This document shows positions 15,030-62,349 of a stretch of 64,000 bases of DNA, piece by piece. Where the stretch lies: positions 124,001-188,000 of the forward strand of contig JASTWF010000323.1 in NCBI GenBank assembly GCA_030390025.1, in the 5' to 3' direction. Under the pieces are notes generated by a model, which saw only the letters and a program-made list of their open reading frames with translations, did not search any database and was not told the DNA's origin. Both the position numbers and the translations under genes were made by a program. This DNA is from Squalus acanthias. Its lineage: Eukaryota. Numbering within the stretch: the first letter of the stretch is position 1; each line of letters opens with the position of its first letter.

Positions 15030-15760
15030 TTTCACTTGTCTGTCTATGTCCTCCTGAAGCCTACCACTATCCCGTTCAGTGTTTACTACATTTCCGAGTT
15101 TTGTTTCATCTGCAAATTTTCAAATTATGCCCTTTATATATATGTCTGTATCATTAATATATATCAAAAGGAGCAGTGGTCCGAATAGCGACCCCTGGGG
15201 ACACCACTGTACATCTCCCTCCAGTCTGAACAACAACCGTTCACCACTACGCTCTCTTTTCCGTCCCTTATCCAATGTCAGATCCCCACTGCCACTGTCC
15301 CTCCCTTTGGTCCTAACAAGTCTATTCAATTGCACTTTATCAAAAGCATTGTTAAAGTCCATATACACAACATCAACTGCACTACCCTCATCAACCCTCT
15401 CCGTTACTTCATCACAGAACTCAATCAAGTTTGTCAGACACACTTTGCCGGTAACATATCCGTGCTGGTTGTCATTTATTAATCCTTGTTTTTTCCAAAG
15501 AAAGATAATTTTCTCCGGGAATATGGCCTCTAGAAGTTTCCCCACCACTGACGTTAGGCTGACTGTCCTGCAGTTATAGGGTTTATCCCCCTCTCCTATT
15601 TTAAACAGCGTGCAACATTTTCAGCACTCCAGTCTTCTGGCAACACTCCCATATCCGAGGAGGATTGAAATATTCTGGCCAGATCGTGTGCTATTTCCAC
15701 CATTTCTTCCCTCAGCAACCCTCATATATCCCATCCGGACAGGGTAAACATTCTACTTTC
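15030..15760 (-). mobile_element. CR1 LINE RT fragment
   Basis: ORF 15120-15548 (CLTNLIEF, VDVVYMDF, PQGSLFGP). Confidence 0.82.
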
Positions 15761-15789
15761 CTGTTGTACAAAAAGTGCTGGATTGAAAG

Positions 15790-15945
15790 GGGTTAACTGA
15801 ATCTGTTTGTTCAGTGACTGTAATTAATGTCAGTCTCCACGGGTTAACTGAAGCTTTTTGTTTATTGACTTTAATTAATGTCAGTCTCCATGGATCCTAA
15901 TTGCTTCAGGGCAGGGTTTCCCTCTTCTATTAATAAGGGACACCT
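15790..15945 (+). promoter_or_regulatory. Putative proximal promoter of GPCR exon 1a
   Basis: 51-bp tandem duplication (15790 and 15841) with TAATTA; kB-like gggtttccc at 15914; TATA-like tattaataa at 15928; homologous to the region upstream of exon 1b. Confidence 0.45.
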
Positions 15946-16026
15946 TTCAATGGGTTATCCCATATGTTAGTGACAGCATCACCTCCGACACTAACAGGGA
16001 TCAGCACGCTGCTCCACAGAGCGGGA

Positions 16027-16152
16027 GTCGGACTCTGAGAACAGTAGATTGGAATGTTGCAACAATGGATCAGAATCTGAGAACAGTTGATTGGAATGTT
16101 ACACCAATGGGTCGGAATCTGAGAACAGTAGATTGGAATTTTACAACAATGG
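16027..16152 (+). repeat. 3 x 42-bp tandem repeat spanning the GPCR start codon
   Basis: Units start at 16027, 16069 and 16111; each ends in ATGG; the translated units encode (D/G)xNLRTVDWNxTxM. Confidence 0.92.
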
Positions 16153-16287
16153 GCAGGAGTTTATCCTGGCAGTTTGACATTCTTTCAGAATATTATGATA
16201 TAATATCATTAGGCTGGCGGATCTATTACGCACTTCAGATCATTCAATACATTTACTATCCGCTCCTTGCTGCTGTTGGAGTTCCAG
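16065..16287 (+). CDS. GPR139/GPR142-like class A GPCR, coding exon 1 (exon 1a)
   Basis: MDQNLRT...IQYIYYPLLAAVGVP is an N-terminus plus start of TM1; ends at consensus donor CAG|GTAAGT (16288), phase 1; G+TG gives V and joins exon 2 in frame. Confidence 0.88.
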
Positions 16288-16554
16288 GTAAGTCTCTCTC
16301 TCCAACTATTAATTCGATAAATCATGTTTTATTGAATTACTGTGCTTGTCATTTACTCTCCCCTCCTTTCTGTTGTTAGTGTTCCTGGTAAGTCTTTGTA
16401 TCTAACTATTAGCTCTGCAAACCTTTGCTAACTGTGCTACTGTTCTCGTAAGTTACTCTCTCATCTTTGGAGCTGTTGTTGTCCGTGGTAATTCTCCATA
16501 TCCATCAATTAGATCTGTAATCCTCTGATTCACCAGGCCTGCCGACCGCCATCG

Positions 16555-16850
16555 CCACAAAAACGCCCGTCTCCACCACGCCTCAGCCCTTCCACTGCAT
16601 AAACCCTCATCGATGCCTTTGTTAAATCCAGACTCGACTCTTCCAATGCTCTCCTGGCCGGCCTCCCAGTTACAAGCCTCCATAAACTAGAGCTCATCTA
16701 AAACTCTGCTGCCATTATCCTAACATGCATCATGTCCCCATCACCCAACATCTCTCTGATCACTGACCTGCATTTGCTCCCATTTCGGCAACGCAATAAC
16801 CTTAATATTCTAGTCCTTGTGTTCAAATCCCACCATGACCTCACCCCTCC
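16555..16850 (+). mobile_element. L2-type LINE RT C-terminal fragment
   Basis: AFVKSRLDSSNALLAGLP, then LITDLHLLP. Confidence 0.75.
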
Positions 16851-17194
16851 AAATATTCCCATTCTCCTGCTCTTTTCCCATAGAGCTGCAAATTGTTCCC
16901 CTTCAAATATTTATCGAATTCCCCTTTTAAAGTTATTTTTTTCCCTATGTACCTCTACCAGTCTTTCGGTCTTTATTTTAATTTCTCTCTTTCTCTCTTT
17001 ATCTCTCTCCCTCTTGACTCTTCTCTCTCCGTCCCTTGCTCATAGAGTCATAGAATAGTACAGCACAGAAGGCGGCATTCGGCCCATCATTTCCATTCCG
17101 TCTCTTTGAAAGTGCAATCTAATTAATCCAACTCTGTAGTCAGAGCCTTCTAAAAATGTCCCCTTCAACTAATTATCCCAGTCCCTTTCAAAAG

Positions 17195-18670
17195 TTACTA
17201 AAAGAGGAAATAGCGGAGGCTCAGACTATCATGTTTCAATCCTCTCTGGCTGCTGGTGTGGTGGCAGAGCACTCCTAACGTTGTGCCGTTGTTTAAAAAA
17301 GGAAAAAGGGTTAGACCGATCAATTACAGGCCCGTCAGCCTAACTTCGTTGATTGGAAAAAGTATTAGAAACGTTCTCAGGGATATTATAAATCGGCATT
17401 TAGAAAGACACGGATTAATCAAGGACAGTCAGCGTGGATTTATAAAGAGAAGGTCGTGTCTGACTAACTTGAATGAATTTTTTGAGGAGGTAACGAGGAG
17501 GGTCGATTAAGGTAGTGCATTTGATGTAGTCCACATAAATATTAGCAAGGCCTTTGACCAGGTCCCACATAAGAAGCTGGTCAAAAAGTAAAAGCCCATG
17601 GGATCCAAGCGAAAGTGACCAGTTGGATCCCAAATTGGCTCAGTTACGGAAGCAAAGAGTAATGGTCGACGGGTGTTTTTGTGAAATAAGGCTGTTTCCA
17701 GTTGGGTTCCCCTTGGCTCAGTACTAGTTCCCTTGATTTTTGTGGTATTTATCAATGATTTAGACTTCAATGTTGGGGACATGATTAAGAAGTTTGCTGA
17801 TTATACAAAAATTGGCTGTGTGGTTGATAGTGTGGAAGATAGCTTTAGACTTCAGGAAGAAATGAATGGACTGGTCAGGTGGGCAGAAAATTGACAAATG
17901 GAAGTGTGAGATAATGCATTTTTGGAAGGCTAAAAAGGCAAGGGAATACACAATGAATGGCAGTGAAATGAGAAGTGTAGAGGAACAGAGGGACCTTGGA
18001 GTGCATGTCCATAGATCCCCGAAAGTAGAGGACATGTAGATAGGGGAGTTAAGAAGGCATACGGCATACTTTGCTTTATTAGCCGAGGCATAGAACATAA
18101 GAGCATACGAGTTAGGCGAAGCTTGAGTACTGCATACAGTTCTGGTCACCACATTACAGGAAAGATGTGATTGCCTGAGAGACGGAACAGAGGTGATTTA
18201 CGCGGATGTTGCTGGGACTGGGGAGTTTTAGCTATAAGGAAAGATTGGATAGGCTGGGGTTGTTTACTTTGAAAAAAAGGAGGCTGAGGAGAGATTTAAT
18301 TGAGTTGTATATAATTGTGAGGGGCCCAGATAGAGTCGTAACAAAGCAGCTATATCCCTTAGAAGCGAGGTGGATAACCAGGGGGCATAGATTTAAAGTA
18401 ATTGGTAGAAGGACTAGAGGGTAGTTGAGGAGAAGCTTTTTCACCCAGTAGGCGGTGGGGGTTTGGAAAGGATGGTAGAGGCAGAGACCCTCATCACTTT
18501 TTTTAAAAGTACTTGGATATGCACCTGAAGTGCCGTAAAGTGCAAGGCTACGGGACAAGATCTGAAAAGTGCGATTCGGCTGGCTAGCTCCTTTTCGACA
18601 GGCGCAGACACGATGGGCTTTATGCCCTCCTTCTATGCCAATTTTTTTTTGATTCTATAATTTTATGATT
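17195..18670 (+). mobile_element. Degenerate CR1 LINE with 3' tail
   Basis: NVVPLFKKG...NYRPVSLTS; ERLDRLGLFTL; tail near 18650. Confidence 0.85.
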
Positions 18671-18674
18671 CTTA

Positions 18675-19450
18675 ACCTTCTATGCTCTAAAAAGAACAAT
18701 CCCAGCTTTTCCAGTCTTTCCACGTAACAGAAGTTCCAGATGCCTGGTCCCATTCTAGTTAATCTCCTCTACACCTTCTCTAATCCGTGCCATGCTTTCC
18801 AAAGTGTGGTGCTCCGAATTGGACACAATACTCCAGCTGGGGCCTAACAATGATTTATAAAAGGTTTGCATAACTACTTGTATTTTGTTACTCTGTGTTT
18901 CTGTTTGTAAAGCTAAGGCCTCTGTTTGCTTTAACAGCCGTCGCTGCTTGTCCTGCCACCTTCAAAGGTTTGTATAAGTACACCCCAGGTCTGTCTGGTC
19001 GCGCACCCGCTTTGAAATTGTACCGTTTAGTTTATATTACCTCTGCTCATGCTTCCTACCAACATTTATCACTTCACCCTTCTCTGTGTTAAATAGTAGC
19101 TGCCATGTGCCTGCCCATTTCACTAACCTGTCTATGTCCTCCCGAGGTCTGTTAATATCCTTCACACTGTTTATGAACATTTCTGAGTTGCCTGTCATCT
19201 GTAAACTTTGAAATTATTTGCTTCGCACCCAAGTCCATGGCATTGATGTACATATAAACAGCAATTGTCCCAATGACGACTCCTGGGGAACACCAGTATA
19301 TACTTCCCTCCAGTCTGAAAAACAAGCACAGCTCTCTGGTTTCTGGCTCTTAAGACATTTTTCGAGCCATGTTGCCACTGCCCCTTTAAACCCATGGGCT
19401 TTAATGTTGGTATTATGTGGTACTTCATCAAGCACCTTTTGAAAGGATAG
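18675..19450 (-). mobile_element. Degenerate CR1 LINE fragment
   Basis: FSDWREVYTGVPQES (ORF 19214-19537). Confidence 0.75.
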
Positions 19451-19820
19451 GGACATTGGGAAAGAATGGGCAGTAACAATATATAGAATTATAGAATTGG
19501 TGATCCAAGTTGTGAGACAATTTCTTTGGCGGAGCATGACGCCACTCTCTGATCACAGACCTCGCCTGGGTTAAATCAATGAATTACAAAATCATTGAGT
19601 TTATTCCCATTTTATTATTTCTATGTATTTGTTCTCAGCATATGCGTAACGCTGTCAAGGCCAGTATTACTTGCCCATCTCTAGTTACGCATCAGAAAAT
19701 GGTGGGCCTTCATCTTGAGCCGCTGCAGTCTGTGTGGTGAAGGTGCTCCCACAATACTGTTACGGAAGGAATTTCGGGCATTTGACTCAGTGACGATGAA
19801 GGGACGGCGATATATTTGAA

Positions 19821-20237
19821 GGGTACGGTAGCGCAGTGGTTATGTGTTGCTGGTCTAGTAAACCAGATGCCTGGACAAATGACCCAGAAGTTCAAATCCC
19901 ACCAGCTGGGGAATTTAAATTCAATTAATTAAACATATCTGGAATAAAAAGTTGGTGTCAGTGATGGTGACCATGAAACTCCCGGCTTGTTGTAAAACCC
20001 CATCTGGTTCAGTAATGTCCTTCAGGGAAGGAAATCTGCCGTCCCTACCTGGTCAGACCGAAATGTGACTCCAGACCCACTGCAATGTGTTTGACTTTTA
20101 ACTGCCTCTGAAATGGACCAGCAAGAAACTTAGTTGTATAAGGCGGCTCACCATCACCTTCTCCAGGGCAATTAGGGTCGGGCAATAAATGCTGGCCTTG
20201 CCAGAGATGCCCACATCCCATGAATGAATAAAAAATA
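19821..20237 (+). mobile_element. tRNA-derived SINE whose 3' tail matches the type 2 CR1-clade LINE
   Basis: A-box-like tagcgcagtgg and B-box-like gttcaaatcc; tail gggcaataaatgctggccttgccagagatgcccacatcccatgaatgaataaaaaa resembles the LINE tails at 13725 and 4978. Confidence 0.75.
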
Positions 20238-20479
20238 ATGTCCACGTCTAGATGATGTGTGATTTGACGGGGGAACTTGGAGATGATTCTGTTTTGTGCT
20301 ACAGTCCGAGCCGAATTCTAGCCTCTACCCTGTGCCTCGTCCCCTTGATGCCAATTGTAGGAATTCAACTGCTGCCCTTGGGGTGAAAATTACTTACTAC
20401 AAAATATAAAATACAAACAAAGTAACATTTGGCATTTTCGGGATGCAGATCCTTTACTCGACACTTGGTAATGAGATGG

Positions 20480-20615
20480 GGCTGAACACAAGAGATGAGC
20501 ATGTTAAAATCGAGGCATTGTCGGACCGGGAGACAATGTAGGTCAGCGAGCACAGGGGTGATGGGTGAACAGGACTTGGTGCGAGTTAGGACACGGACAG
20601 CAGAGTTTTGGATGT
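20480..20615 (-). mobile_element. L2-type LINE fragment
   Basis: IQNSAVRVLTRTKSCSPITPVLADLHCLPV. Confidence 0.75.
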
Positions 20616-21144
20616 GACAGAAATGCTCGTAATTAATTTTAGATAAAAGTCTTATATCTCCCCACGCCTCGAGCAATCTGTCTCGGATAACAAATGACTC
20701 TGAATGGGTTCAGGCCGAGCCTTTTGGAGGCAAAGTCTTAGTCCAATTCGTCAGCACGCTGTGACATTTGATATCTGCAGATGTCTGCAGACAAGGGCTG
20801 AGGAATTCGTCTTGGGCGGTGGCGCTAACCGGGCGGTATCGGATCGGCCGCCTGTTACTCACAGCGCCTGATATTCAGTTCCACTGCAGTCAATGACGGA
20901 TTTCTATGCCTAGGTTTTCAATTCTTAACACTTCGTTTCCAGCAAAGGCTTCTCCGTAACGCAGTGAAGCCACTTCAGTGTCAAAGAACTAGTCTCTGTA
21001 ATCCTGCACCATCGAAACCCCTGTGGATCCAAAACCGATGGTCCGCTGTTTAAAAACAAACTTTTCTTAATTGTATAACATGCAATGAACACCTAAACAA
21101 GAGTGCAGAGTCACAGTCAATGACACAGAAACATTGACATAAGC

Positions 21145-21465
21145 TGTTTAAAGAGACAGGACCAGTCACACAGGCTTTTTAAAGAGAAAGGACTATTCAC
21201 ACAGGCTTTTTAAAGAGACAGGACAAGTCCCACAGACTTATTAAACAGACAGGACCAGTCACACAATCTATTTAAAGAGACAGGACCAGTCACACAGGCT
21301 TTTTAAAGTGTCAGGACCAGTCACACAGGCTTTTTTAAGTGACAGGACCAGTCACACGGGCTTTTTAAAGAGACAGGACCAGTCAGAAAGGCTTTTTGAA
21401 GAAAGGACCAGTCACACAAGCTTTTTAAAGCGACAGGGACAGTCACAAATTATTTTTAAAGAGGG
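21145..21465. repeat. 31-bp minisatellite, about 10 copies
   Basis: ggaccagtcacacaggctttttaaagagaca at 21159, 21190, 21221 and onward. Confidence 0.92.
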
Positions 21466-22344
21466 AAAAGGCTGCAAACAAAAAGCCCGAGAAATTGTTT
21501 TCGGGCGATGGCACAAAGCGGGCAGTATCGGTTCCGAAATTCTGATCGGAAATTCTCGGCCCTCATATCTGTCCTTACAGTTTATTAATCCATTAATGTT
21601 CTTTCACAGATTCTAATCTTGTACTGAAATAGGCCCCTTAGAAACTGCTTATTTTGCGGACATTTCGTTTTATTCTTTGTACGTGTCCTTAATATAGAGA
21701 AATGTGAAATATGTTATTAGAATTAGTAGGGTCTTGATCACATGGCATCCCTCTGTCAACAGACAGTATTCCATAACACTCTTGAATTGTGCCTTGTAGG
21801 TGTTGGAGATATTTTCTGGAGTCAGGAGGTGAGTTACTCACCGCAGAATACCCAGCATCTGACCTGCTGTCGTACCCACGACATTTATGAGGCTGGTCCA
21901 GTTGAGTTTCTGATCAATGGCGACCCCTAGGATTTTGAAGTTGGAGGATTCGGTGATGGAAATGTCGTTAGCTGTCAAGTGGAAGAGGTTAGACTTCCAC
22001 TTGTTTGAGGTGGTCATCGTCTGCCACTTGTATGGTGAGAATTTACCATAATGACACCAGTGATGAGCGATTTCAGTTATGTGGTGAGACGAGTGAAGCT
22101 TGGATTGTTCTCCTTAGAGCAGAGAATGGTAGGGGGAGGTTGAATAGAAGTGTTCAATATGATAAGGGGTTTTGATACATTAAGTAAGGAGACAATGTTT
22201 CAACTACTTGTCTTGTCATTACCAAAATCACACAGATATAAAATAATTGGTTAAAAAAAGGGAGCAGATGTGAAGAGCGTTGGTCACGCAGTGAGTTTTT
22301 ATAATCTGGAATGAACTCTGAAAGTCTGGTGGAAGCCCATCAGT

Positions 22345-23160
22345 AGGGTCAGTTCGTAGCACTCTCGGCTCTGAGTCAGCAGATTGTGGGTTCAAGTCCC
22401 ACTCCAGCGACTTGAGTCCAAAAATCTAGGCTAACACTGCAGTGCAGTACTGAGGGATCGCTGCACTGTCAGAGGGGCAGTACTGAAGGAGCACTGCACT
22501 GTCAGAGGAGCAGTACTGAGGGAGCACCGCACTGTCAGAGGGGCAGTACTGAGGGATCGCTGCACTGTCAGAGGGGCAGTACTGAGGGAGCACTGCATTG
22601 TCAGAGGGGCAGTACTGAGGGAGCACAGCACTGTTAGAGGGGCAGTACTGAGGGATCGCTGAACTGTCAGAGGGGCAACACTGAGGGATCACTGCAGTGT
22701 CAGAGTGGCAGTACTGAGGGAGCACTGCCCCGTCAGAGGGGCAGTACTGAGGGATCGCTGCACTGTCAGAGGGTCAGTACTGAGGCAGTGCTGCACTGTC
22801 AGAGGTTTAGTACTGAGGGAGTGCTGCAGTGTTGGAGGGCTGTCTTTCAGATGAGTCGTTAGACCGAGGCCCCGTCTGTTCCCTAAGATGGAAATAAAAG
22901 ATCCCATGGAACGAAATCGAAGAAGAGCAGCAGAGTTAACCCCGGTGTTCTGACCGATATTTATCTCAATCAACATCACTAAAGCAGATTATCTGGTCAT
23001 TATCACATTGCTGTTTGTGGGAGCTTGCTGAGCACAAATTGACTGCCACGTTTCCGACAGTACAACAGTGACTACAGTTCAAAAGTACTTCATTTGCTGT
23101 AAAGCGCTTTGGGAAATCCCGAGATAGTTAAAAGCGCTATATCAATTCAATTATTTCTTT
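22345..23160 (+). mobile_element. tRNA-headed DeuSINE (SacSINE1/AmnSINE1-like) with internal minisatellite expansion
   Basis: B-box ggttcaagtcc; Deu-domain-like gtctttcagatgagtcgttagaccgaggccccgtctg; L2-like tail ctgtaaagcgctttggga...gcgctatat; family recognised from memory. Confidence 0.8.
22440..22838. repeat. 33-bp minisatellite, about 12 copies, inside the SINE
   Basis: cagtactgagggagcactgcactgtcagagggg; 11-aa periodicity in ORF 22426-22725. Confidence 0.93.
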
Positions 23161-24156
23161 CTTAACTGTAACTTCCAAAAGATAATGGGTATATACTCGG
23201 AAAGAAGAAACATTCAGTGCTATGTGCAAATGATTCAGTCGTCATTCACCTTCATGACAGGATATGACAGCTTTGAGATAATTTGATTTGTTGGTTGTGA
23301 GATCGCTTGGCTCTGTCTAATTTCATTCCATTGATCACCATGGTAGTGGCACATGATATGATGGAGGGTGGCCTCAGGGTGAAGACGAGACTTATTCTCA
23401 GCAAATATTGTGCAGTTATCATTCCTACCAATAACGTAATGGACAGATGGTGAGGACGAAGTCAAGCAGGCTATTCGCTCATGTTGGTTTTCCCACCACC
23501 TGCCGCAATCCCAGTCTGGCAACTGCGTTTTTCAGGGCTCGGCTAATGATGGTACTTCCGAGGCACTCTTGGTGATGGACATTGAAGTTTCCCCCTCGAC
23601 ACCCAGAGTATAATTTGCGCCCTTTCTGCTCTCGGTGCTCCCATTAACTGGTGTTCAGCATGACGATATGCCGATTCATCAACTGAGGGATGCTGATAGG
23701 TGATAATCAGCAGGAAGTTACCTTGCCCATGTCTGACCGGAAAACATGAGACTTCATTATGACCTTAGAGAATGTTGAGGACTCACAGGGTCTCGCCAAC
23801 GCGAATGTATACCCCTGTGCTACCTCCACTGGTTGGCCTGTGCAGACACTGGGATGGTGATGGAGGATTCTGGAATGTTGAATGATAGTTATGTTTCTGT
23901 GAGTATGACTATGCGAGAATTCAATGTTTCCAGAGCGTTTCATGAAGTGTTGAAATGCTGAACGGTAATTTATCTCATTGGTTAATATTTTAAGCGGTTT
24001 CCTTTGATTCTTTTTTATTAACCCTTTGCTCATTTTATTTATTCTTCCTCTCGCTAAAGCAACATGACATGTTTGTCTGGGTGAGGTCGCTCTTTAGAAA
24101 TAGGTTGTTCTTGTTCTTGTTCTAGTTTCAGGCAATAGAAACATGAACTGGAATGA

Positions 24157-24805
24157 AATTCCTGGACTGAGGCGCTAGCAGTGTAAGGTAGGCAGCCCTG
24201 AGAATTAAATTCCTGGATTGAGGCGGGAGCAATGTATTCCATGCGGCCCTGGGAATCTAATTCCTGGACTGAGGCGGGAGCAGTGTAATCTAGGCGGCCC
24301 TGGGAATTAAATTCCTGGACTGAGGCGGGAGCAATGTAATCTAGGCGGCCCTGGGAATGAAATTCCTGGACTGAGGCGGGAGCAGTGTAATCTAGGCGTC
24401 CCTGGGATTTTAATTCCTGTACTGAGGAGGGAGCAGTGTAATCTAGGCGGCCCTGGGAATGAAATTCCTGGACTGAGGCGGGAGCACTGTAATCTAGGCG
24501 TCCCTGGGATTTTAATTCCTGTACTGAGGCGGGAGCAGTGTAATCTAGGCGGCACTGGGATTGAAATTCCTGGGCTGAGGCGGGAGCAGTGTAATCTAGG
24601 CGGCCCTGGGAATGAAATTCCTGGACTGAGGCGGGAGCACTGTAATCTAGGCGTCCCTGGGATTTTAATTCCTGTACTGAGGCGGGAGCACTGTAATCTA
24701 GGCGGCCCTGGGAATGAAATTCCAGTGCTGAGGCGGGAGGAGTCTAATCTAGGCAGCCCTGGGAATGACATTCCTGGACTGAGGCGGGAGCACTGTAATC
24801 TCGGC
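24157..24805. repeat. 51-bp minisatellite, about 13 copies
   Basis: aattcctggactgaggcgggagcagtgtaatctaggcggccctgggaatga; 17-aa periodicity in ORF 24307-24834. Confidence 0.93.
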
Positions 24806-24989
24806 GAGTCCCATCGTTCCAACACTAGGATCATCTCTCAGATCCTGCCGTTTAGGAACATTTATTTATTGTTTTTTTATCATAATGGCCTAGTATGGAA
24901 TAAATCAGAGAATAACAGTGGAAAAATCAGTTTTTCAGTTTTCGAAACAGAGTGCTCAGGTTGAGTTTTTGGAAAAGTAGGAATTAGTG

Positions 24990-27900
24990 GCAGAGGGGGA
25001 AGGAGGAGAGAGCGAGAGGAGCCGTCGGAGATAAAGGTCGGCCAGAGAACCCGGTCCCCGGAGGGAGCATAAGGTTTTCGAGGTAAGTGACGTCAGCACA
25101 AGGGAAGACGCTGCAAAGAAAATAAATGTTGAGTAGATGTTAATTTTAATTCTGTTAAGTTAGTAAATTGTCCATGAAATAGAGGCATGGCAGTGCACAT
25201 CCGTCCCATGGAATGCACATCTTGTGCCATCTGGGAACTAGATTGATTCCTGGGATGGCCGGTCTGACATATCAAGAAAGATTGGGTCAACTGAACTTGT
25301 ATCCTCTGGAGTTCAGAGGAATGAGGGGGGATCTTATAGAGACATTTAAAATCCTGACTGGTTTAGACAAATTAGATGCGGGCAGAATGTTCCCAATGTT
25401 AGGGAAAACTAGAACCAGGGGTCACAGTCTAAGGATTAAGGGGAAGCCATTTAAGACTGAGCTGAGGAGGAACTTATTCACCCAGAGAGTGGTGAATTTA
25501 TGGAATTCTCTTCCACAGAAGGTTGTTGAGGCCAGTTCGATAAATATATTCAAAAGGGAGTTAGATATAACACTCACAACTCGGGGGATCAAGGGGTATG
25601 GCGAGAAAGCAGGAATGGGGTACTGAGGTAGCATGTTCAGCCATGAACGCATTGAATGGCGGTGCAGGCTCGAAGGACCGAATGGTCTACTCCTGTACCT
25701 ATTTTCTATGTTTCTATGTTTCTATGATACAGCTCACGGGTTTCGGAGCTTGAGCAGCAGCTGGCATGACTGCGGTGCATACGTGAGGCTGAGAGCTCTG
25801 GGGATAGTACGTTTCAGGAGGTGGTCACAACGCAGCATAAGATTGTGCAGGCAGAGAGAGAATAAGTGATCGTCAAACAGACAAGGAGGACCAGGCAGGT
25901 AGTGCAGGAGTCCCCTGAGTGCATCTCATTCGATTGTTCCTCTGGAGAGTACAGCCAGAGCCAAGTCCACGGCACAACGGGTGGCTCAGCTGTATGTGGG
26001 GGGAGGAGAAAGATCGCGAAAGCAATAGTGATAGAAGATTGGATAGTTAGGGGAAGAGACAGGCCTTTCTCCGGCCGCAGACCTGACTGCAAATGATATG
26101 TTGCCTCCCTGGTGTCAGGGTCAAGGATGTCACTGAAATGCTGTAGAACATTCTGAGGGTGGAGTGTGAAAAGCCAGAGGTCGTGCTCCATATCAATAAC
26201 AACGACATAGGTAGAAAGAGTGATGTGATCCTGCAGCCAGATAATAGGGAGCTAGAAAAGAGATTACAAAGCAGGACCTCGAAGGTAGTAATCTTCTGAT
26301 TACTCCCAGTTCCACTAGATAGTGAGTATAGAAATAGGAGGAAAGAGCAGATGAAAGCGTGGCTGGAGACATGGTGCAGGAGGGAGGGCTTTAGATTCCT
26401 GGGACAATTGGGACCGGTTCTGGGGGAGGTGGGACATGTACAGATCAGACGGGTTGCATAGAATCATAGAAATTTACAGCACAGAAAGAGGCCATTCAGC
26501 CCATTTGTCCGTGCCGGCCGACAAAGAGCTATCCACCCTAATCCTACTTTCCAGCACTTGGTCCGTAGCTTTGCAGGTTACGGCACTTCAAGAGCATATC
26601 CAAGTACTTTTTAAATGTGATGAGAGTTTCTGCCTCGACCACACTTTCAGGCAGTGAGTTCCAGACCCCCACCACCCTCTGGATGAAAAGATTTCTCCTC
26701 AAATTCCCTATAAACCTCCGAGCAATTACTTTAAATCTATGCCCCTGGCTATTGACCCTTCTGCTAAGGGAAATAGCTCCTTCCTATCCACTCTATCTAG
26801 GCCCCTCATAATTTTATACTCCTCAATTAGATCTCCTCCTCAGCCTCCTATGTTCCAAAGAAAACAGCCCCAGCCTCTCCAATCTTTCCTCACAGCTAAA
26901 ATTCTCCAGTCCATGAAACATCCTCGCAAATCTCCTCTGTATCCTCTCTAGCGCAATCACATCTTTCCTGTAATATGGTGACCAGAAATGCACGCAGTAT
27001 TCTAGCTGAGGCCGAATATAGCGTTTTATACAGTTCAAGCATAACCTCCCTGCTCTTGGCCTCTGCTAATAAAGGCAAGTATCCCGTATGAACTTCCTAG
27101 CCACGTTATTTACCTGTCCTGCTACCTTCAGGGATCTGTGCACATGCACTCCATGAGCCCTCTCTTGCTCTGCACTTCTCAGTATCCTACCATTTATTGT
27201 TTATGCCCTTGCATTGTTAGCCCTCCCCAAATGCATTACGTCACACTGCTCCGGATTGAATTCCATTTGCCACTGTTCTGCCCACCTGACCAGTCCATTG
27301 ATATCTTCCTGAAGTCTGCAGCTTTCTTCTTCATTATGCACTTTTTGTTTCATCTGCAAACTTCTTAATCGTATCCCGTACATTCAAGTCTAAATCATTG
27401 ATATATATATCAAAAAGCAAGGCAACTCAACAGAGCTGGGATCACTGTTCTGGCAGGGAGGTGGGTGTGTTAGTGTTGTTGGGGAGGGTTTAAAATAATC
27501 TGCCAGGTGGGTGGGCACCAGGATGTGGCATTAGAAAGGAGAAACAAGGTGCACAAAGGATTGGGAGAGACAGATAGCAGTAGAGTATGAAATAGCACGG
27601 GATTAGGTGGGATCAGACGAAGAGAGAATCCAAGAAGGTCTAAGATAGAAATAAAAAATGTTGGAAACACTCAGCATGTCAGACAGCTTCCGTGGAGAGA
27701 GAAACAGAGTGAACCTTTCAGGTCTGTGACCCTTCGTCAGAACTGGAAAAAGTTAGAGATGTAACAGGTTTTAAGCAGATGCAGAGGCAGTGAAAGCGGG
27801 GAGGGAAGGAAATAAGGTAAGGGACGGTCTGAAATTCAGATAGGAAGTGAAAAAGGAAATAAGAGGGCCAAAGAGAGAGTATGAGAATAGATTGGCAGCT

Positions 27901-29488
27901 AACATTAAATGGAATCCAGAAGTCCTCTATCGGCATATAAATATTAAACGGGTATTAAGAGGAGGGCTGGGCCGATTAAGGACCTATGAATGGAGGCAGA
28001 AGGCATGGCTGAGATACTGAATGAATAATTTGCATCTATTTTTAGCAAGGAAGAAGATGCTGCCGAAGTCATAGTGAAAGTGAGGTAGTTGAGATACTGG
28101 GAGGTGTAAAAATTGATAAATTGGAGGTACTATAAAGGTATGTTTTACTTAAAGTGGATAAATCCCCAGGAGCGGATGGGATGCCTCCGCGGATGCTGTG
28201 GGAAGTAAGGGTGGACATTGTGGAGGTACTGGCCATAATCTTTCAATCCTCCTTAGATACGGTGTGGTGCCAGAGGACTGGAGAATTGTAAATGTTACAC
28301 CCTTGTTCAAAAACGGGTGCAAGGGTAAACCCAGCAACTATGGAGCAGTCAGTTTAACATGGTGGTGGGGAAGATTTTAGAAACGGTCACTTGGAGAAGT
28401 GTGGATTAATTCAGCAAAACCAGCATGGATTTGTCAAAGGCAAATCATGTTTTAACTAACTTGACGTGTTTTTTGATGAGGTGACAGAGGGTTGATGAGC
28501 TCAATGCGGTTGATGTGGTGTACATGGACTTCAGAAAGACGTTTGATAAAGTGTCACATAATAGGCTCGCCAGCAAAGTTGATGCCCGCGGAATAAAAGG
28601 GACAGTTGCAGCATGGATACGAAATTGGCTGAGAGACAGGAAACAGATGGGCAGAACAGTGGCAAATGGAATTTAACTCTGAAAAGTATGAGGTGATGCA
28701 TTTTGGGAGGACTAACAAGGCAAGGGAATACACAATGAATGGTAGGACCCTAGGAAGGACAGAGGATCAGAGGAAACTTGGTGTGCATGTACATAGATCC
28801 CTGAAGGCAGCAGGACGGGTAGCTAAGGTGATGAAAAAGGCAAATGGGATACTTGCCTTCATTAACCGAGGCATACAATTTTAGAGCAGGGAGGTTATGA
28901 TGGAGCTGCACAAACCGCTAGTTAGACCACAGCTGAAATACTGTGTGCAGTTCCTCTCGCCACACTATAGGAAGGATGTGATTGCATTGGAGAGGGTGCA
29001 GAGGAGATTCACCAGGATGTTACCTGGGCTGGAGCGCTTCAGCTATGAAGAGAGACTGGGCAGGCTGGGGTTGTTTTCCTTAGATCAGAGAAGGCTGAGG
29101 GGGGACCTGATAGATGTGTGCAAAATTATGAGCGTCATAAATAGGGTAGATACAAAGGAACTTTTCCCCTTAGTAGAGGGGTCAATAACCAGGGGGCATA
29201 GTTTCAAGGTAAGGGGCAGGAGGTTTAGAGGGGTTTTGAGGAAAAACTTTTTCACCCAGAGGGTGGTTGGAATCTGGAACTCACTGCCTGAAAGGGTGGT
29301 AGATGCAGGAACACTCACAACATTCAAGAAGCATTTAGTTGAGCACTTGAAACGCCATAGCATACAAGGCTACGGACCTAGTGCTGGAAAATGGGATTAG
29401 AATAGACAGGGCTTGATGGCCGGCGCGGACACGAACGGCCGAAGAGCCTCTTTCTGTGCTGCAAAATTCTATGACTCTATGAATCTAT
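24990..29488 (+). mobile_element. Fragmented CR1 LINE (5' UTR, ORF1 zinc finger/SGNH esterase, partial ORF2, tail) with nested insertions
   Basis: ORF1 start MAVHIRPMECTSCAIW at ~25187; CLPGVRVKDV; RT ORFs 28666-29400; tail ttctatgactctatga. Nested: CR1 fragment 25234-25725 (+), CR1 26458-27420 (-), Penelope-type repeat 27650-27835. Confidence 0.75.
27650..27835 (-). mobile_element. Penelope-like terminal repeat fragment; related copies at 49680-49820 (+) and 50765-50862 (-)
   Basis: Shared motif ctcagcaggtcaggcagcatctgtggagagagaaacagagttaacgtttcaggtc...cccttcgtcag in three places; hammerhead-like core. Confidence 0.6.
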
Positions 29489-29714
29489 GACATGATCTCA
29501 TTCAATGAAATGCTCGAATTGCCGTGCGGCCTAAACCTGCTCCTAATTCTTATGTTCTTATGTTTAAGGGCGGGTGAAATATTGCGAATTCGCTCACTTT
29601 TAATTTGAAACTGTGCACAATAAGTTGAGCTAGATTGTGTTGCAGTAAAGTGTTGTGGTGATAATGGTTCAATGAGTTGGTTTGTTCTTTGACAAAAATC
29701 AATGCCAGATACAG

Positions 29715-29790
29715 AGAGACGTAATGATGTCACTCGGGGATTTCCCTCTGCTCTAAATAAGGAGCTCCCTTCACTGTTTCACCTCACACA
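29715..29790 (+). promoter_or_regulatory. Putative promoter of alternative GPCR exon 1b
   Basis: gggatttccctctgctctaaataaggagctcccttcactg aligns with gggtttccctcttctattaataagggacacctttcaatg upstream of exon 1a; consensus kB site GGGATTTCCC at 29737-29746. Confidence 0.5.
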
Positions 29791-29844
29791 GTCAGCGCAC
29801 TGCCTACAGCACAAAAACCACCAGCCACTCTGAGAAGGGAAGAC

Positions 29845-29935
29845 ATGGATTGGAATGAAGTGTTTAGGATATTAGGAACAAGTTATGTTATGCAAAATAT
29901 GTACTATCCCCTCCTCACTGCTGTTTATGTTCCGA
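29845..29935 (+). CDS. Second GPCR first exon (exon 1b): alternative N-terminus or orphan paralogue exon
   Basis: MDWNEVFRILGTSYVMQNMYYPLLTAVYVP (30 codons + 1 nt), homologous to YYPLLAAVGVP; followed by GT at 29936 (A|GTATGG), phase 1 like exon 1a; not in the ORF track. Confidence 0.65.
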
Positions 29936-30031
29936 GTATGGATCTATGTCCAGTTATTAATTCTAAGTAATGGAGAGGCCCTGAGAATGAGTTGGCACTT
30001 CAGCTACAAAGCATTGATGGCTCTGTTTGGC

Positions 30032-33000
30032 CCAGTGACCTCTGGGTTAGAGAGGAGGTGAATCATCCCAGGTTCCTGCTCCTGATCAGTGTCCAGTGAC
30101 AGCTAGCTTAGAGGGAGATGTTGAATCAGCCCTGGTTCCTGCTCCTGATCCCAGTCTAATGACCACTGGGTTAGAGGGAAAGGGTGAATCAGCCCACACT
30201 CCTCCTCCTGATCGCTGTCCAGTGACCCCTCGGTAGGAGGGAGAGGGTGGGTCAGCCCGGGTTCCTGCTCCTGATCCATGTCCAGTGATCCCTGGGATAG
30301 GGATTCGGTGAATGAGCCCAGGATCCTAATTTAAGGAAAGATATAGTTGCATTAGAGGCAGTTCTGAGAATGCTCACTAGGTTGATTCCTAAGTTGAAGG
30401 CGTTGTCTTATGATGAAAGGTTAAGCAGGTTGGGCCTATACCCATGGGAGTGTAGAAGAATGAGAGGTGATCTTATTGAAACATATCGGATTCTGTGGGG
30501 GCTCCACAAGGTAGATGCAGGGAGCATGTTTCCCCTCGTGGGGGAATCTAGAACTTGGAGGCATAGTTTCAGAATTAGGGGTCGCCCATTTAAAACGCAG
30601 ATGAGGAGGAATTTATTCTCTGAGGGTCGTGATTCGTTGGGATTCTCAACCCCAGAGAGCTGTGGAGGCTGAGTCATTAAATATATTCAAGGCGGAGATT
30701 GACAGATTTTTAATAGACAGGGGAATCAAGGGTTATGGGGAGTGGGAAGGAAAGTGGAGTTAAGGCCAAGATCAGATCAGCCATGATCTTATTGAATGAC
30801 GGAGCAGGTTTGAGGAGCGGAATGGCCTATTCCTGCTCCTATTTATTATGTTCTTGTGTCCAGTGACCCCTTGGTCCGAGGGAAAGTGTGAATCAGCCCA
30901 GGTTCCTGTTCCTGATCACTGTCAAGTGACCCCTGGGTTAAGAAGAGAGTTAAGTAACCCAGGTTCCTGCTCCTGATCACGGTCCAGTGACCCCTGGGTT
31001 AGGGAGGTGGTAAATCAGCCCGGGTTCCTGCTCCTGATCCCTGTCAAGTGACCCCTGGGCTAGGGAGGGGGTGAATCACTCCACGTTCCTGCTCCTGATC
31101 CCTGTCCTGTGACACCTGGTTAAGGGAGAGGGTGAATCAGCCCGCGGTCCTGTTCCTGATCCCTGTGTAGTGACCCCTGGGTTAGAAATGCGGTGAATGA
31201 GCCCATGATCCTTATTTAAGGAAGGATATAGTTGCATTGGAGGCAGTTCTGAGAATGCTCAATAGGTTGATTCCTGAGTTGAATGGTTTGCCTTACACGG
31301 AAAGGTTGAGCAGGTTGGGCCTATACCCATTGGAGTTCAGAAGAAAGAGACGTGATCTTATTGAAACATATAATATTCTGAGGGGGCTCGACAAGGTAGC
31401 TGCAGGGAGAATGTTTCAACTCGTGGGGGTATCTAGAACTAGGGGACATAGTTTCAGAATAAGGGGTCGCCCATTTAAAACGGAGATGAAGAGAGTTTTC
31501 TTCTCAGAGGGTCGTGAATCTTTGGAATTCTCTACCCCAGAGAGCTGTGCAGGCTGAGTCATTGAATATGTTCAAGACGGAGATCGATAGATTTTGAAAA
31601 ACAGGTGAATCAAGGGTTATGGGGACCGGGCAGGAAAGTGGAGTTGAGTCCAAGATCTGATCAGCCATGATCTTATTGAATGACAGAGCAGGCTTGAGGG
31701 GCGGAATGGCCTATTCCTGCTCCTATTTCTTATGTTCTTATGTCCAGTGACCCCTGGGTCCGAGGGAGAGGCTGAATCTGCCCAGGTTCCTGCACCTAAT
31801 CCCTGATAAATGACGCCTGGGTTATGGAGGGGGCGAATCAGCCCAGGTCCCTGTACCTGTTCTCTGTCCAGTGACCCCTGGGTTAGGAAGGGGGCTGAAT
31901 CAGCCCGGTCTCCTGCTCCTGATCCCAGTCTGATGACCCCTGGGTTAGAGGGAGAGGGAGAATCAGCCCAGGTCCCTGCTGCTGATCACTGTCGAGTAAC
32001 TCCTGGCTAAGGGAGGGGTGAATCAGCCTGGGATTCCTGATCCTGATCCCTGTCCAGTGGCCCCTTGTTTAGGGAGGGGTTGAATCAGACCGGGTTCCTG
32101 CTCCGGATCCCTGTCCAGTGAACAATGGCTTAGGGAGGGGGCGCATCAGCCCGGATTCCAGCTCTTGATCCCTGTCCAGTGAGCCCTGGGTTAGGGATGG
32201 GGTGAATCAGCCCAGGTTCCTTAATTAAGGAAGGATATATTTGGGGAGAAAGCAGGGACAGAGTACTGAATTTGGAAGATCAGCCATGATCGTATCGAAT
32301 GGCGGAGCAGGCTAGAGGGCCCGTATGGCCTATTCCTGCTCCTATCTTCTATGATTCTATGATTCTATGGTTTGCATTGGAGGCAGTTCAGAGAAGTTTC
32401 ACTCGGTTGATTCCTGAGTTGAAGGGGTTGTCTAATGAGGAAAGTTTGAGAAGCTGGGACCTATACTCATTGAAGCTTAGAAGAATGAGAGGTGATCCTA
32501 TTGCAACATATAAAATTCTGAGGGGGCTTGACAGGGTAGAAGAAGGGAGGATGTTTGCCCTCGTGCGGGAATCTAGAAGTAGGGGGCATTGTTTCAGAAT
32601 AATGAGTCGCCCATTTACAACGGATATGAGGAGGAATTTCTTCTCTCAGAGGGTCGTCAATCTTTGGAATTCTCTACCCCAGAGAGATGTGGAGGCTGAG
32701 TCGCTGAATATATTCAAGGCGGAGATAGACAGATTTTTGAAAAACAGTGGAATCAAGGGTTATGAGGAGCGGGTAGGAAAGTGGAGTTGAGGCAAGGATC
32801 AGTTCAGCCATGAACTTATTGAATGACGGAGTAGGCTTGAGGGGAAGAATGGCCTATTCATGCTCCTATTTCTTACGTGTTATGTTTTTATATCCAGTGA
32901 CCCCTGGGTTCGTGGGAGAGGGTGAATGAGCCCAGGTTCCTGCTCCTGATCACTGTCCAGTGACCCCTGGTTAGAGGGAGGGGGTGAGTCAGCCCGGGTT

Positions 33001-61394: not shown

Positions 61395-62296
61395 TGAACT
61401 TAGTGACGATTGTGATCCTGTCTCGGGGAAAGTGCGGTCTCTCCAAATGTGTCACTCGCTACCTGGTGGCCATGGCAGTGGCGGATCTACTGGTCATTAT
61501 TCTGGACCTGATATTGAGGCACATTCCGATTGTTTATATGGAACAGTTTCATTTCGTGCGGTCCATCCCAGTGTGTAATATCCACGCCGTCCTGCTGTTC
61601 GCAGCCACAGACTGTTCTGTCTGGTTCACCGTCACTTTCACTTTTGATCGATTTGTGGCCATTTGTTGCCAGGAGCTGAAAACTAAATATTGCTCCGAGA
61701 AAACTGCGGCTGCGGTTCTGGGAACAGTGACTGTGCTGAGCGGTTTAAAGAACATCACATGGTATTTTATGTTCAGAGGTCAGTATTGGCTTCAGAACCT
61801 CCCCTGGTTTTGTGATGTCATAGACGATGTTCGGTATTCACGGGTCTGGGGAACAATTGAGTTCCTTCATTACATTCTCACCCCGGGGGTACCATTTATG
61901 GTGATTCTGCTGCTCAATGCTTTCACCGTCAGACACATTTTAGTTGCCAGCAGAGCCCGCAGGAGACTCCGGGGTCCCAGCAGTGGGGACAGTCCCAGAG
62001 ACCCAGAGATGGAGAGCCGCAGGAAATCAATCATTTTACTGCTTGTTATCTCCGGCAATTTCATGCTGTTATGGGCAGTGTTTATGGTGTATTCTATATG
62101 GAGCCGGATGTGGTTTTTGGGGTATTATTCTGTAATTCTACATGAGTATGTTCTGGACCTGGGATTCATGTTGCAGCTGCTAAGTTGCTGCACAAACACT
62201 GGGATTTACGCCGTGACTCAGGCTAAGTTCAGAGAGCAGTTGAAAAATCTGGGGAAATATCCCTTTACTCTGATTGTAAAATTCATTAAAGGATGA
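61395..62296 (+). CDS. GPR139/GPR142-like class A GPCR, coding exon 2 (end of TM1 to C-terminus)
   Basis: Polypyrimidine tract and cacAG acceptor (61393-94); NLVTIVIL, MAVADL (TM2), FDRF (TM3), PF..ILLLN (TM5), NTGIY (TM7 NPxxY variant), FRE helix 8; no stops. Confidence 0.93.
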
Positions 62297-62349
62297 GAAT
62301 AATAGGAGACTTTGCAGCCTGAGAGTTTAGAGCTCCCTGGGACTGATAT

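What the first reader, a model, noticed from the sequence alone, without database searches (positions are those of the whole stretch)
29715..29965. Hidden second promoter and first exon inside the GPCR intron: possible variable-N-terminus receptor
Seen: an unannotated 91-nt ATG-initiated exon (MDWNEVFRILGTSYVMQNMYYPLLTAVYVP) is paralogous to exon 1a. The similarity covers the coding end, the upstream tttccctct..taataagg block, the actctgagaa and gattggaatg motifs, and the intronic tcca..tattaattc. Its GT is phase 1, so A+TG = Met joins exon 2 in frame and gives a 330-aa receptor with a short N-terminus lacking N-glycosylation sequons. No other exon 2 was seen between 16.3 and 61.4 kb. Inference: two promoter/first-exon cassettes share one constant 7TM exon, an architecture known from clustered protocadherins and UGT1 but unusual for a GPCR. 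The donor (A|GTATGG) is weaker than that of exon 1a.
Basis: partly seen in the sequence, partly recalled or inferred. Interest (0 to 1): 0.82.

Follow-up and report, generated by a model that had tools for sequence, protein, structure and literature searches.

The report
Decaying spare first exon in receptor intron
The hidden second first exon of this shark receptor gene is real and recurs in the first intron of dozens of sampled sister genes, but it mutates like junk DNA and is broken in over half of them, so it is likely a leftover duplicate, not a working alternative start.

Summary
An ATG-initiated 91-nt exon (29845-29935) with a phase-1 GT donor would join exon 2 (61395) in frame and give a 330-aa receptor. 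It is a paralogue of exon 1a, including a TATA-like promoter block found only twice in the window.

New here: the gene belongs to a huge shark "probable GPR139" family (at least 4655 exon-2 candidates in this genome). The triad 1a, then 1b, then one exon 2 recurs: 14 of 15 sampled units with 1b have 1a 11-21 kb upstream. So 1b is an old, inherited cassette.

- Of 94 distinct 1b copies, only 42 keep ATG, frame and GT. 29 read ATA, 16 carry stops and 11 have length changes. Neutral simulation predicts about this much retention.
- The 1b coding part changes as fast as or faster than its intron flank.
- In a matched set of 71 copies the promoter block is no better conserved than the flank.
- Exon 1a is intact in 32 of 32 copies, and in all 14 units where 1b is intact in only 7.

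No RNA data could be found, so use of 1b in this gene is not excluded. This scan had already noted the family on other DNA, but not the second cassette.

The parts
15790..15890 (+). 51-nt x2 repeat upstream of exon 1a. Each unit carries the TGTAATTAATG block, which is also the best-conserved block between the 1a and 1b cassettes.
   Evidence: Tandem repeat finder. In the consensus alignment of the 1a and 1b upstream regions this block matches almost fully.
15917..15938 (+). TATA-like promoter block of cassette 1a (TTTCCCTCT..TAATAAGG). Promoter activity is inferred, not shown.
   Evidence: One of only two matches to the shared block in the window, with 0.05 expected. It changes at 0.78 per site against 1.49 in the intron flank among 32 copies picked by similarity.
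16065..16287 (+). Exon 1a coding part: 74 codons plus one base, with two N-x-T sequons, a 42-nt x3 repeat and the start of TM1. The donor is CAG|GTAAGT, phase 1.
   Evidence: ATG, open frame and GT are intact in 32 of 32 distinct copies and in 14 of 14 triad units, whose last 12 residues are identical.
16340..16490 (+). Two short decayed copies of the exon 1a end plus donor, lying inside the intron.
   Evidence: Read. There is a weak tblastn row at 16351-16386. Secondary hits of query part 351-416 lie about 100 nt behind most 1a copies in the genome.
29672..29700 (+). Position of the TGTAATTAATG-type block of cassette 1b. It has decayed in this window copy.
   Evidence: 8 of 29 positions differ from the consensus of 36 other copies (alignment). 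The motif is found, with at most 1 mismatch, in 80 of 94 copies, but not in the window copy.
29741..29762 (+). TATA-like promoter block of cassette 1b (TTTCCCTCT..TAAATAAGG). Activity is not shown.
   Evidence: The second of the two matches in the window. It is present, with at most 3 mismatches, in 91 of 94 copies.
29763..29844 (+). Predicted leader of exon 1b, with no upstream ATG. It holds AG dinucleotides (29790-29791) that would be in phase 1 and in frame with 1b.
   Evidence: It changes more slowly than the flank (0.96 against 1.42 per site). It adjoins the 17-mer used to pick 55 of the copies, so this may be a sampling effect.
29845..29935 (+). Exon 1b coding part: ATG, 30 codons plus one base, no sequon. 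The donor is CGA|GTATGG, phase 1. It is intact in this window.
   Evidence: Of 94 distinct genomic copies, 42 are fully intact. The change rate is 1.89 per site against 1.42 in the intron flank.
29491..30037 (+). Extent of the 1b cassette that still aligns with distant copies elsewhere in the genome.
   Evidence: blastn of locus L001 against nine other copies. Six distant ones (L004, L006-L010) start at the same base and end at 30003 or 30037 in window coordinates.
61395..62296 (+). Exon 2, the only one in the window: the rest of TM1 through TM7 and the stop codon. The acceptor is ...cctcacag|TG.
   Evidence: Pfam 7tm_1 at E 1.6e-18. In pairwise comparisons with eight paralogues, dN/dS is 0.43-0.66 in seven and 1.00 in the closest one.

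Best explanation
Exon 1b with its promoter-like block is an old duplicate of the receptor gene's promoter-plus-first-exon cassette that was carried along in the first intron as the gene family multiplied. It is likely no longer a selected coding exon.

Shown:
- The cassette is a paralogue of 1a.
- It lies between 1a and the single exon 2 in 14 of 15 sampled units.
- Across 94 copies it loses its ATG, frame and donor at about the neutral rate, while 1a stays intact.

Inferred:
- The mature mRNA of this gene would start at 1a and join 16287 to 61395, with 1b removed as part of the 45-kb intron.
- The window copy of 1b is still intact by chance. It could at most act as a weak cryptic start, because its upstream TGTAATTAATG-type block is lost and its donor is weakened.
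For: 1. The cassette is inherited and family-wide.
- The 291-nt 1b stretch has at least 559 candidate copies, of which 40 were scored at 89-100% identity.
- The 1a stretch has at least 602 candidates.
- The exon-2 peptide has at least 4655 candidates. Of the 131 scored, 130 have no stop.
- 14 of 15 units with 1b have 1a 11-21 kb upstream on the same strand with no exon 2 between. The fifteenth has a 700-N assembly gap there.

2. The coding part decays. In 94 distinct copies (40 picked by similarity, 54 by a 17-mer around the start):
- 83 keep 91 nt.
- The start reads ATG in 64, ATA in 29 and AGA in 1.
- 16 carry stops.
- 87 keep GT.
- 42 of 94 are fully intact.
- Whole sub-clades carry the same lesion: 7 copies share a stop at codon 5, and 4 share a frameshift.

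3. This is what neutrality gives. The observed substitutions were placed at random on the copy tree. That leaves ATG, no stop and GT in 34.7 +/- 22.9 of 94 copies, against 46 observed (P 0.40).

4. Change rates in a matched set of 71 copies, per site:
- coding part: 1.89
- promoter blocks: 1.56
- intron flank: 1.42

5. Contrast with 1a.
- 32 of 32 copies are intact.
- The TM1-start codons change at 0.53 per site against 1.49 in the flank.
- In the same 14 units, 1a is intact in 14 and ends in the same 12 residues. 1b is intact in 7, reads ATA in 6 and has a stop in 1.
- Exon 2 shows no stop in the 13 of these units that one search lists.

6. The reconstructed ancestor of the 1b copies ends in the same 12 residues as 1a. 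The 1b copies have since drifted away from them.

7. The window copy has lost the most conserved upstream block (8 of 29 differences). It has GTATGG where 65 of 94 copies have GTAAGG.
Against: - The window copy keeps ATG, frame, GT, a good start context and the TATA-like block, so nothing in the sequence forbids its use.
- With 1a as outgroup, the earliest 1b branches carry ATG. The cassette was therefore probably coding-competent when the family began to expand.
- In the first sample of 36 copies the promoter and leader changed about half as fast as the flanks (57 changes in 144 sites against 54 in 89).
- In one clade of 25 copies, ORF integrity exceeded the simulation (23 of 25 against 14.0 +/- 5.5, P 0.024).
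- Overall dN/dS of 1b in the first 40 copies was about 0.62. With 90 sites this cannot be told apart from the family's exon-2 values of 0.43-0.66.
- The leader stretch stays slower than the flank in the wide sample (0.96 against 1.42 per site).
- Some units are recent duplicates of each other, so counts of copies are not counts of independent events.
- No RNA evidence of any kind was available.
Confidence: 0.65

Rival explanations
1. First reader's reading. 1b is a live alternative promoter and first exon. The gene would then make two receptors from one 7TM exon: a 374-aa form with a glycosylated tail (1a) and a 330-aa form with a short bare tail (1b).
For: - The cassette is complete and in phase in this window.
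- The triad is kept in 14 of 15 sampled units.
- ATG was probably ancestral.
- 42 of 94 copies are still intact.
- The TATA-like block is present in 91 of 94 copies.
- One clade keeps the ORF better than simulated (P 0.024).
- Gene models of other sharks include short N-termini of similar length and ending (for example P0065, P0111, 331 aa).
Against: - 52 of 94 copies are disabled, as often as neutral simulation predicts.
- The coding part and promoter blocks change no slower than the intron flank.
- The TM1-start residues drift in 1b but are fixed in 1a.
- The donor is weak, and the upstream block is lost in this copy.
- A search of 5.8 billion proteins with the 58-aa 1b frame found no longer protein carrying it. 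This is weak evidence, since the species is not in that collection.
Confidence: 0.2
2. The coding part of 1b is dead, but the promoter-like block would still work in transcription control. It could be an internal promoter giving non-coding or unproductive transcripts, or an intronic enhancer derived from a duplicated promoter.
For: - The TATA-like block is kept in 91 of 94 copies, and the TGTAATTAATG block in 80 of 94.
- The latter block is the best-conserved stretch between the 1a and 1b consensus sequences.
- The promoter and leader looked twofold conserved in the first 36 copies.
- The leader is slower than the flank in the wide sample.
Against: - In the matched set of 71 copies the two promoter blocks change at 1.56 per site against 1.42 in the flank (P 0.43). 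The early signal therefore came from sampling two young clades.
- The slow leader adjoins the 17-mer used to choose 55 of the copies.
- The window copy has lost the upstream block.
Confidence: 0.1
3. 1b is an internal cassette exon, not a first exon. An acceptor at 29790-29791 (cacag|TC) would be in phase 1 and in frame. That gives a 144-nt symmetric exon that could be included between 1a and exon 2, so the ATA copies would need no start codon.
For: - The frame is open from 29761.
- The AG lies behind a pyrimidine-rich run and is kept in all 40 copies shown.
- 144 nt is a multiple of three (my count).
Against: - Being in frame has a one-in-three chance.
- The product would repeat the TM1 start after a 36-residue spacer.
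- Stops and frameshifts in many copies count against this reading as much as against the first-exon reading.
- No RNA evidence is available.
Confidence: 0.03

Closest known systems
[quoted passage not shown]
   Same: Paralogous first exons sit in tandem, each behind its own promoter-like block, upstream of shared downstream coding sequence. From recall only, the UGT1 cluster also holds dead first exons among the live ones, which is what 1b most resembles.
   Different: - There are only two cassettes here.
- The first exon encodes just the outer tail and half of TM1, not a whole variable domain.
- Splicing of 1b to the shared exon is not shown.
- 1b shows no sign of selection.
- The arrangement is repeated in the sampled genes of a large dispersed family, not present as one cluster.
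GPR35 short and long isoforms, a class A receptor (abstract seen: PMC9450150)
   Same: [quoted passage not shown]
   Different: The GPR35 isoforms are expressed and differ in signalling according to that abstract. Here the short form is only a prediction, and the evolutionary evidence is against its being selected.
RefSeq-type shark gene models named 'probable G-protein coupled receptor 139' (Heptranchias perlo, Heterodontus francisci, Pristiophorus japonicus, Stegostoma tigrinum)
   Same: - The exon-2 peptide is 56-81% identical to the 120 best hits, all of which carry that name.
- The domain is 7tm_1.
- Most models start with the same NLRT.DWN.T repeat tail as exon 1a.
   Different: - The window's species is not among them; the best identity is 81%.
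- None of the 120 models begins with a 1b-like peptide that I could recognise with certainty.
- A few have short N-termini of similar length.
- Whether those genes have a second cassette could not be checked, because no shark genome other than the window's own can be searched here.

Membership tests
Class A (rhodopsin-type) GPCR, shark 'probable GPR139' expansion | Seven-transmembrane rhodopsin-family domain | tested here: met
   Pfam 7tm_1: E 1.6e-18, 67.5 bits against a cut-off of 30.5, covering residues 1-271 of the exon-2 peptide.
Class A (rhodopsin-type) GPCR, shark 'probable GPR139' expansion | Closest relatives are the shark models of that name | tested here: met
   All 120 best hits carry the name, at 56-81% identity. 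2561 proteins have E <= 0.001.
Class A (rhodopsin-type) GPCR, shark 'probable GPR139' expansion | Two coding exons split by a phase-1 intron inside TM1 | tested here: met
   Window: 16287|GT ... AG|61395, giving 374 aa with no internal stop. The same 1a end and GTAAGT donor occur in all 14 units.
Variable-first-exon gene (protocadherin / UGT1 type) | Two or more paralogous first exons in tandem upstream of one shared exon | tested here: met
   Paralogy z scores are 17.7 and 6.5. The window holds one exon 2 only. The triad is seen in 14 of 15 units.
Variable-first-exon gene (protocadherin / UGT1 type) | Each first exon has its own active promoter | not testable with these tools
   A paralogous TATA-like block precedes both exons. 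Activity needs CAGE, 5' RACE or a reporter assay, and no RNA run was found.
Variable-first-exon gene (protocadherin / UGT1 type) | Each first exon is spliced to the shared exon in mature mRNA | not testable with these tools
   No RNA holder was listed. The four runs laid are contigs of related organisms that run across the acceptor, so they behave as DNA.
Variable-first-exon gene (protocadherin / UGT1 type) | Each first exon is kept by selection | tested here: not met
   1a: 32 of 32 copies are intact and the TM1 start is constrained. 1b: 42 of 94 copies are intact, retention fits neutral simulation, and its change rate is at or above that of the flank.
Relic (pseudo) first exon inside an intron | Homologous to the working first exon of the same gene | tested here: met
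Relic (pseudo) first exon inside an intron | Disabling changes accumulate at the neutral rate while the working exons of the same units stay intact | tested here: met
   In the matched 14 units, 1a is intact in 14 of 14 and 1b in 7 of 14. Exon 2 is without stops in the 13 of these units that one search lists.
Relic (pseudo) first exon inside an intron | Not represented in mature mRNA | not testable with these tools
   No RNA data.

The most novel reading that the evidence does not exclude
In the genes where it is still intact (42 of the 94 sampled copies, this gene included), cassette 1b is a live second promoter and first exon. Many members of a giant shark receptor family could then each switch between a long, glycosylated, fast-evolving outer tail and a short bare one. 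That would be protocadherin/UGT1-style first-exon choice repeated gene by gene in a GPCR family.
Probability: 0.2. Interest if true: 0.65.

Novelty: new member of a known kind. Interest (0 to 1): 0.33.

Why it matters
If 1b were used, a receptor family with thousands of members in sharks would have a built-in way to make two versions of each receptor. That would bear on how these undescribed, chemoreceptor-like genes are regulated.

As the evidence stands, the practical points are these:
- Annotators should not add a 330-aa isoform for this gene without RNA support.
- The conserved 1a - 1b - exon 2 triad is a useful marker of one large subfamily and of its duplication history.
- The case shows how an intact-looking, in-phase spare exon can persist by chance in a young, rapidly copied gene family.
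- It also shows how sampling copies by similarity can fake a conservation signal.

Tried and rejected
- **Reads laid on exon 2.** Four listed runs (X1, X5, X9, X10, coded organisms A, B, D, E) were laid on 61000-63000. All are contigs, mostly 90-95% alike. Several run from the intron across the acceptor at 61395, so they behave as DNA of related species and give nothing on splicing.
- **Reads laid on the first exons.** The same runs were laid on 15700-30100. The output is dominated by interspersed repeats. The bins holding 1a and 1b have cover in all four runs, but the 481-nt bins and summed contig depths allow no conclusion on 1b.
- **Protein database.** The 58-aa open frame that contains it, searched against longer proteins at E up to 10, gave 53 word-sharing candidates and none scored. 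This is weak evidence, because the species is not in that collection.
- **Annotated isoforms.** I looked among the 120 best database proteins for pairs that share exon 2 but differ in N-terminus. There was one pair, and neither member is 1a- or 1b-like.
- **Mobile element idea.** I considered that 1b belongs to a mobile element, because the first search gave hundreds of copies with sharp ends. I rejected this: the copies sit at the same place inside the same gene unit.
- **Derived ATG idea.** I considered that ATG was gained late, from a 40-copy midpoint-rooted tree and my hand alignment to GTA in 1a. I rejected this after rooting 94 copies with 1a. The earliest branches carry ATG, and the 1a letters at that place depend on the alignment.
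- **Promoter conservation claim.** A claim of twofold promoter conservation was withdrawn after the matched 71-copy set. An intermediate count was inflated by copies whose flanks are unrelated sequence. A masked version normalised poorly.
- **First DNA alignment.** The first MAFFT alignment of the two cassettes misaligned the exon ends and was replaced by local alignments.
- **Literature.** 'GPR139' with 'shark' gave 4 papers, none on this family by title and abstract. 'GPR139' with 'cartilaginous' and 'expansion' gave 1 general review.
- **Earlier notes of this scan.** Look-ups by place, words and sequence found the family noted before but nothing on a second first exon.

Full report
**What is in the window**

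The + strand holds a two-exon class A receptor gene.

- Exon 1a starts at the ATG at 16065 and ends at 16287 with the donor CAG|GTAAGT, in phase 1.
- Exon 2 runs from 61395, behind ...cctcacag, to the stop at 62294-62296.
- Together they give 374 aa with no internal stop and two N-x-T sequons in the tail.
- The exon-2 peptide is a 7tm_1 domain at E 1.6e-18.

- The ATG is at 29845, followed by 30 codons plus one base, and the donor is CGA|GTATGG behind 29935, in phase 1.
- A+TG gives Met at the join. The joined product is 330 aa with no sequon in the exon-1 part and no ATG in the predicted leader.
- No second exon 2 exists in the window: the exon-2 peptide finds only itself, and the next row has E 0.6.

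**Is the similarity more than chance?**

Yes. Local alignment of the two cassettes was compared with 200 dinucleotide shuffles.

| Part compared | z score |
|---|---|
| Exon end, donor and first intron bases | 17.7 |
| Promoter block | 6.5 |
| Short ctgagaa/gattggaatg part | 2.8 |

The shared block TTTCCCTCTNCTNTWAATAAGG occurs twice in 64 kb, at 15917 and 29741, with 0.05 matches expected. Consensus sequences of the two cassette families also share an upstream TGTAATTAATG block almost letter for letter.

**What the surroundings and the genome add**

The window is G000:C2484:124001-188000, in a 3.7-Gb genome.

- The 291-nt 1b stretch has at least 559 candidate copies. The 40 scored are 89-100% identical over their full length.
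- The 1a stretch has at least 602 candidates.
- The exon-2 peptide has at least 4655 candidates. Of the 131 scored, 130 have no stop.
- The 120 best database proteins are all shark models named "probable G-protein coupled receptor 139", at 56-81% identity, so the window's species is not among them.
- Earlier notes of this scan (e1-7939187 in this genome; e1-7813824 and e1-9870320 in others) had already met this family. None mentions a second first exon.
- Two literature searches found no paper on the family.

At first the many sharp-ended copies looked like a mobile element. Fetching the DNA around copies showed otherwise. The order 1a, then 1b 11-21 kb further on, then one exon 2 another 5-40 kb on, recurs on one strand with no exon 2 between 1a and 1b.

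- It holds for the window, for seven further units together, and for six more. That is 14 of 15 units with 1b.
- The fifteenth unit has a 700-N gap where 1a might lie.
- Some units are recent duplicates of each other: two pairs have identical 1a peptides.
- A more distant neighbour gene 66 kb upstream has 1a and exon 2 but no 1b.

The cassette pair is therefore older than the expansion of a large subfamily and was copied with it.

**Is 1b kept by selection?**

I gathered 94 distinct copies. Forty were picked by similarity to the window, and 54 by an exact 17-mer around the start codon that allowed ATG or ATA.

| Feature | Copies of 94 |
|---|---|
| Length 91 nt | 83 |
| Start ATG | 64 |
| Start ATA | 29 |
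| Start AGA | 1 |
| Stop in frame | 16 |
| GT donor kept | 87 |
| Fully intact | 42 |

Whole sub-clades share one lesion: seven copies have a stop at codon 5, four share a frameshift, and there is a large ATA clade. The units evidently went on being copied after 1b was disabled. Among the 80 exact genome-wide matches to the 17-mer, 52 read ATG and 28 read ATA (the listing was probably capped at 40 per strand).

I placed the observed substitutions at random on the copy tree. This leaves ATG, no stop and GT together in 34.7 +/- 22.9 of 94 copies, against 46 observed (P 0.40).

In a matched set of 71 copies that align in all regions, the changes per site are as follows.

| Region | Changes per site |
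|---|---|
| Coding part | 1.89 |
| Two promoter blocks | 1.56 |
| Leader | 0.96 |
| Intron flank | 1.42 |

Exon 1a behaves quite differently.

- It is intact in 32 of 32 copies.
- Its TM1-start codons change at 0.53 per site against 1.49 in its flank.
- In the 14 triad units it is intact 14 times, with the same last 12 residues and GTAAGT each time.
- In those same units 1b is intact in 7, reads ATA in 6 and has a stop in 1.
- Exon 2 shows no stop in the 13 of these units that one search lists.

Exon 2 of the family evolves at dN/dS 0.43-0.66 in seven of eight pairwise comparisons, and at 1.00 in the closest pair. The decay is therefore specific to 1b. The reconstructed ancestor of the 1b copies ends in the same 12 residues as 1a, and the copies have since drifted away from them.

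**Results on the other side**

- With 1a as outgroup, the earliest 1b branches carry ATG. The cassette was probably coding-competent when the expansion began.
- In my first sample of 36 copies the promoter and leader changed half as fast as the flanks.
- One clade of 25 copies kept the ORF better than simulated (P 0.024).
- dN/dS over the first 40 copies was about 0.62. That is too few sites to tell from either 0.5 or 1.
- The wider, matched sample removed the promoter signal. The early sample consisted of two young clades.
- The leader stays slow in the wide sample, but it adjoins the 17-mer used for picking copies.
- The TATA-like block is still recognisable in 91 of 94 copies, and the upstream block in 80.

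**The window copy itself**

It is among the intact 42. However, its upstream TGTAATTAATG-type block has 8 differences in 29 positions from the family consensus. Its donor reads GTATGG where 65 of 94 copies read GTAAGG. By the vertebrate donor consensus as I recall it, 1a fits at all nine positions and this 1b at five.

**Expression**

No RNA run was found. The four runs I could lay are contigs of related organisms that cross the acceptor and so behave as DNA. A protein search with the 1b frame found nothing. Whether 1b is ever transcribed or spliced in this gene is therefore untested.

**Verdict**

The most likely account (about 0.65) is an old duplicated promoter/first-exon cassette that now drifts as part of the first intron. 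The gene would be expressed from 1a.

A live alternative first exon in the copies that remain intact is not excluded (about 0.2). A purely regulatory role of the promoter-like block (about 0.1) and an internal 144-nt cassette exon (about 0.03) are minor rivals.

The closest known kind is the variable-first-exon arrangement of the protocadherin and UGT1 clusters (abstracts of PMC1885805 and PMC3325998). The long and short N-terminal forms of GPR35 (abstract of PMC9450150) are the nearest receptor example. The feature "each first exon is kept by selection" was tested and not met for 1b.

Noticed in passing
window 61395-62296 and G000 genome-wide: The receptor belongs to an enormous family. The exon-2 peptide has at least 4655 candidate matches in this 3.7-Gb genome. 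Of the 131 scored, 130 are open at 83-100% identity, and exon-2 dN/dS is about 0.5. Earlier notes of this scan met the family on other DNA, and I found no paper on it.
   Followed up: partly
window 16027-16153: Exon 1a holds a 42-nt x3 tandem coding repeat. Each 14-aa unit carries an N-x-T sequon and an ATG. Unit number varies from 1 to 3 among paralogues here and from 1 to 6 in gene models of other sharks.
   Followed up: partly
window 16149-16250: The tail segment of exon 1a between the repeats and TM1 changes 2.5 times per site on the copy tree, against 1.49 in the intron flank. Overall dN/dS of exon 1a is about 1.4. This looks like diversifying selection on the outer tail. The alignment near the repeats is shaky, so the figure is rough.
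   Followed up: partly
window 16340-16490: Two short decayed copies of the exon 1a end plus a GT donor lie just behind exon 1a. The same extra copies follow most 1a copies elsewhere in the genome (secondary hits). They could act as decoy donors.
   Followed up: no
window 15790-15890: A 51-nt x2 repeat carries a TGTAATTAATG block about 60-110 nt upstream of the 1a TATA-like block. The same block precedes most 1b copies. It resembles a homeodomain-type site by recall only.
   Followed up: partly
window 29728-29750 and family copies: Between the upstream block and the TATA-like block, most 1b copies keep TAATGATGTCAC and GGGGATTTCCC. By recall these look like CRE-like and kappa-B-like sites. No test was made.
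   Followed up: no
window 30032-30327, 30857-31212, 31741-31993: Satellite arrays with 61-63-nt units start exactly where the 1b cassette's homology to distant copies ends.
   Followed up: no
window 21143-24806: Further tandem arrays lie inside the big intron: 31-nt x10, 33/99-nt x12 and 51-nt x13. The rest of the intron is mostly interspersed repeats, including reverse-transcriptase-like fragments near 27.2, 28.3-29.1 and 57.8 kb.
   Followed up: no
G000:C2484, 66 kb and 41 kb upstream of the window's 1a and exon 2: A neighbouring gene of the same family lies on the same strand, with a 1a-type first exon and exon 2 about 25 kb apart and no 1b cassette. No further family member lies in the 100 kb downstream of the window.
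   Followed up: partly
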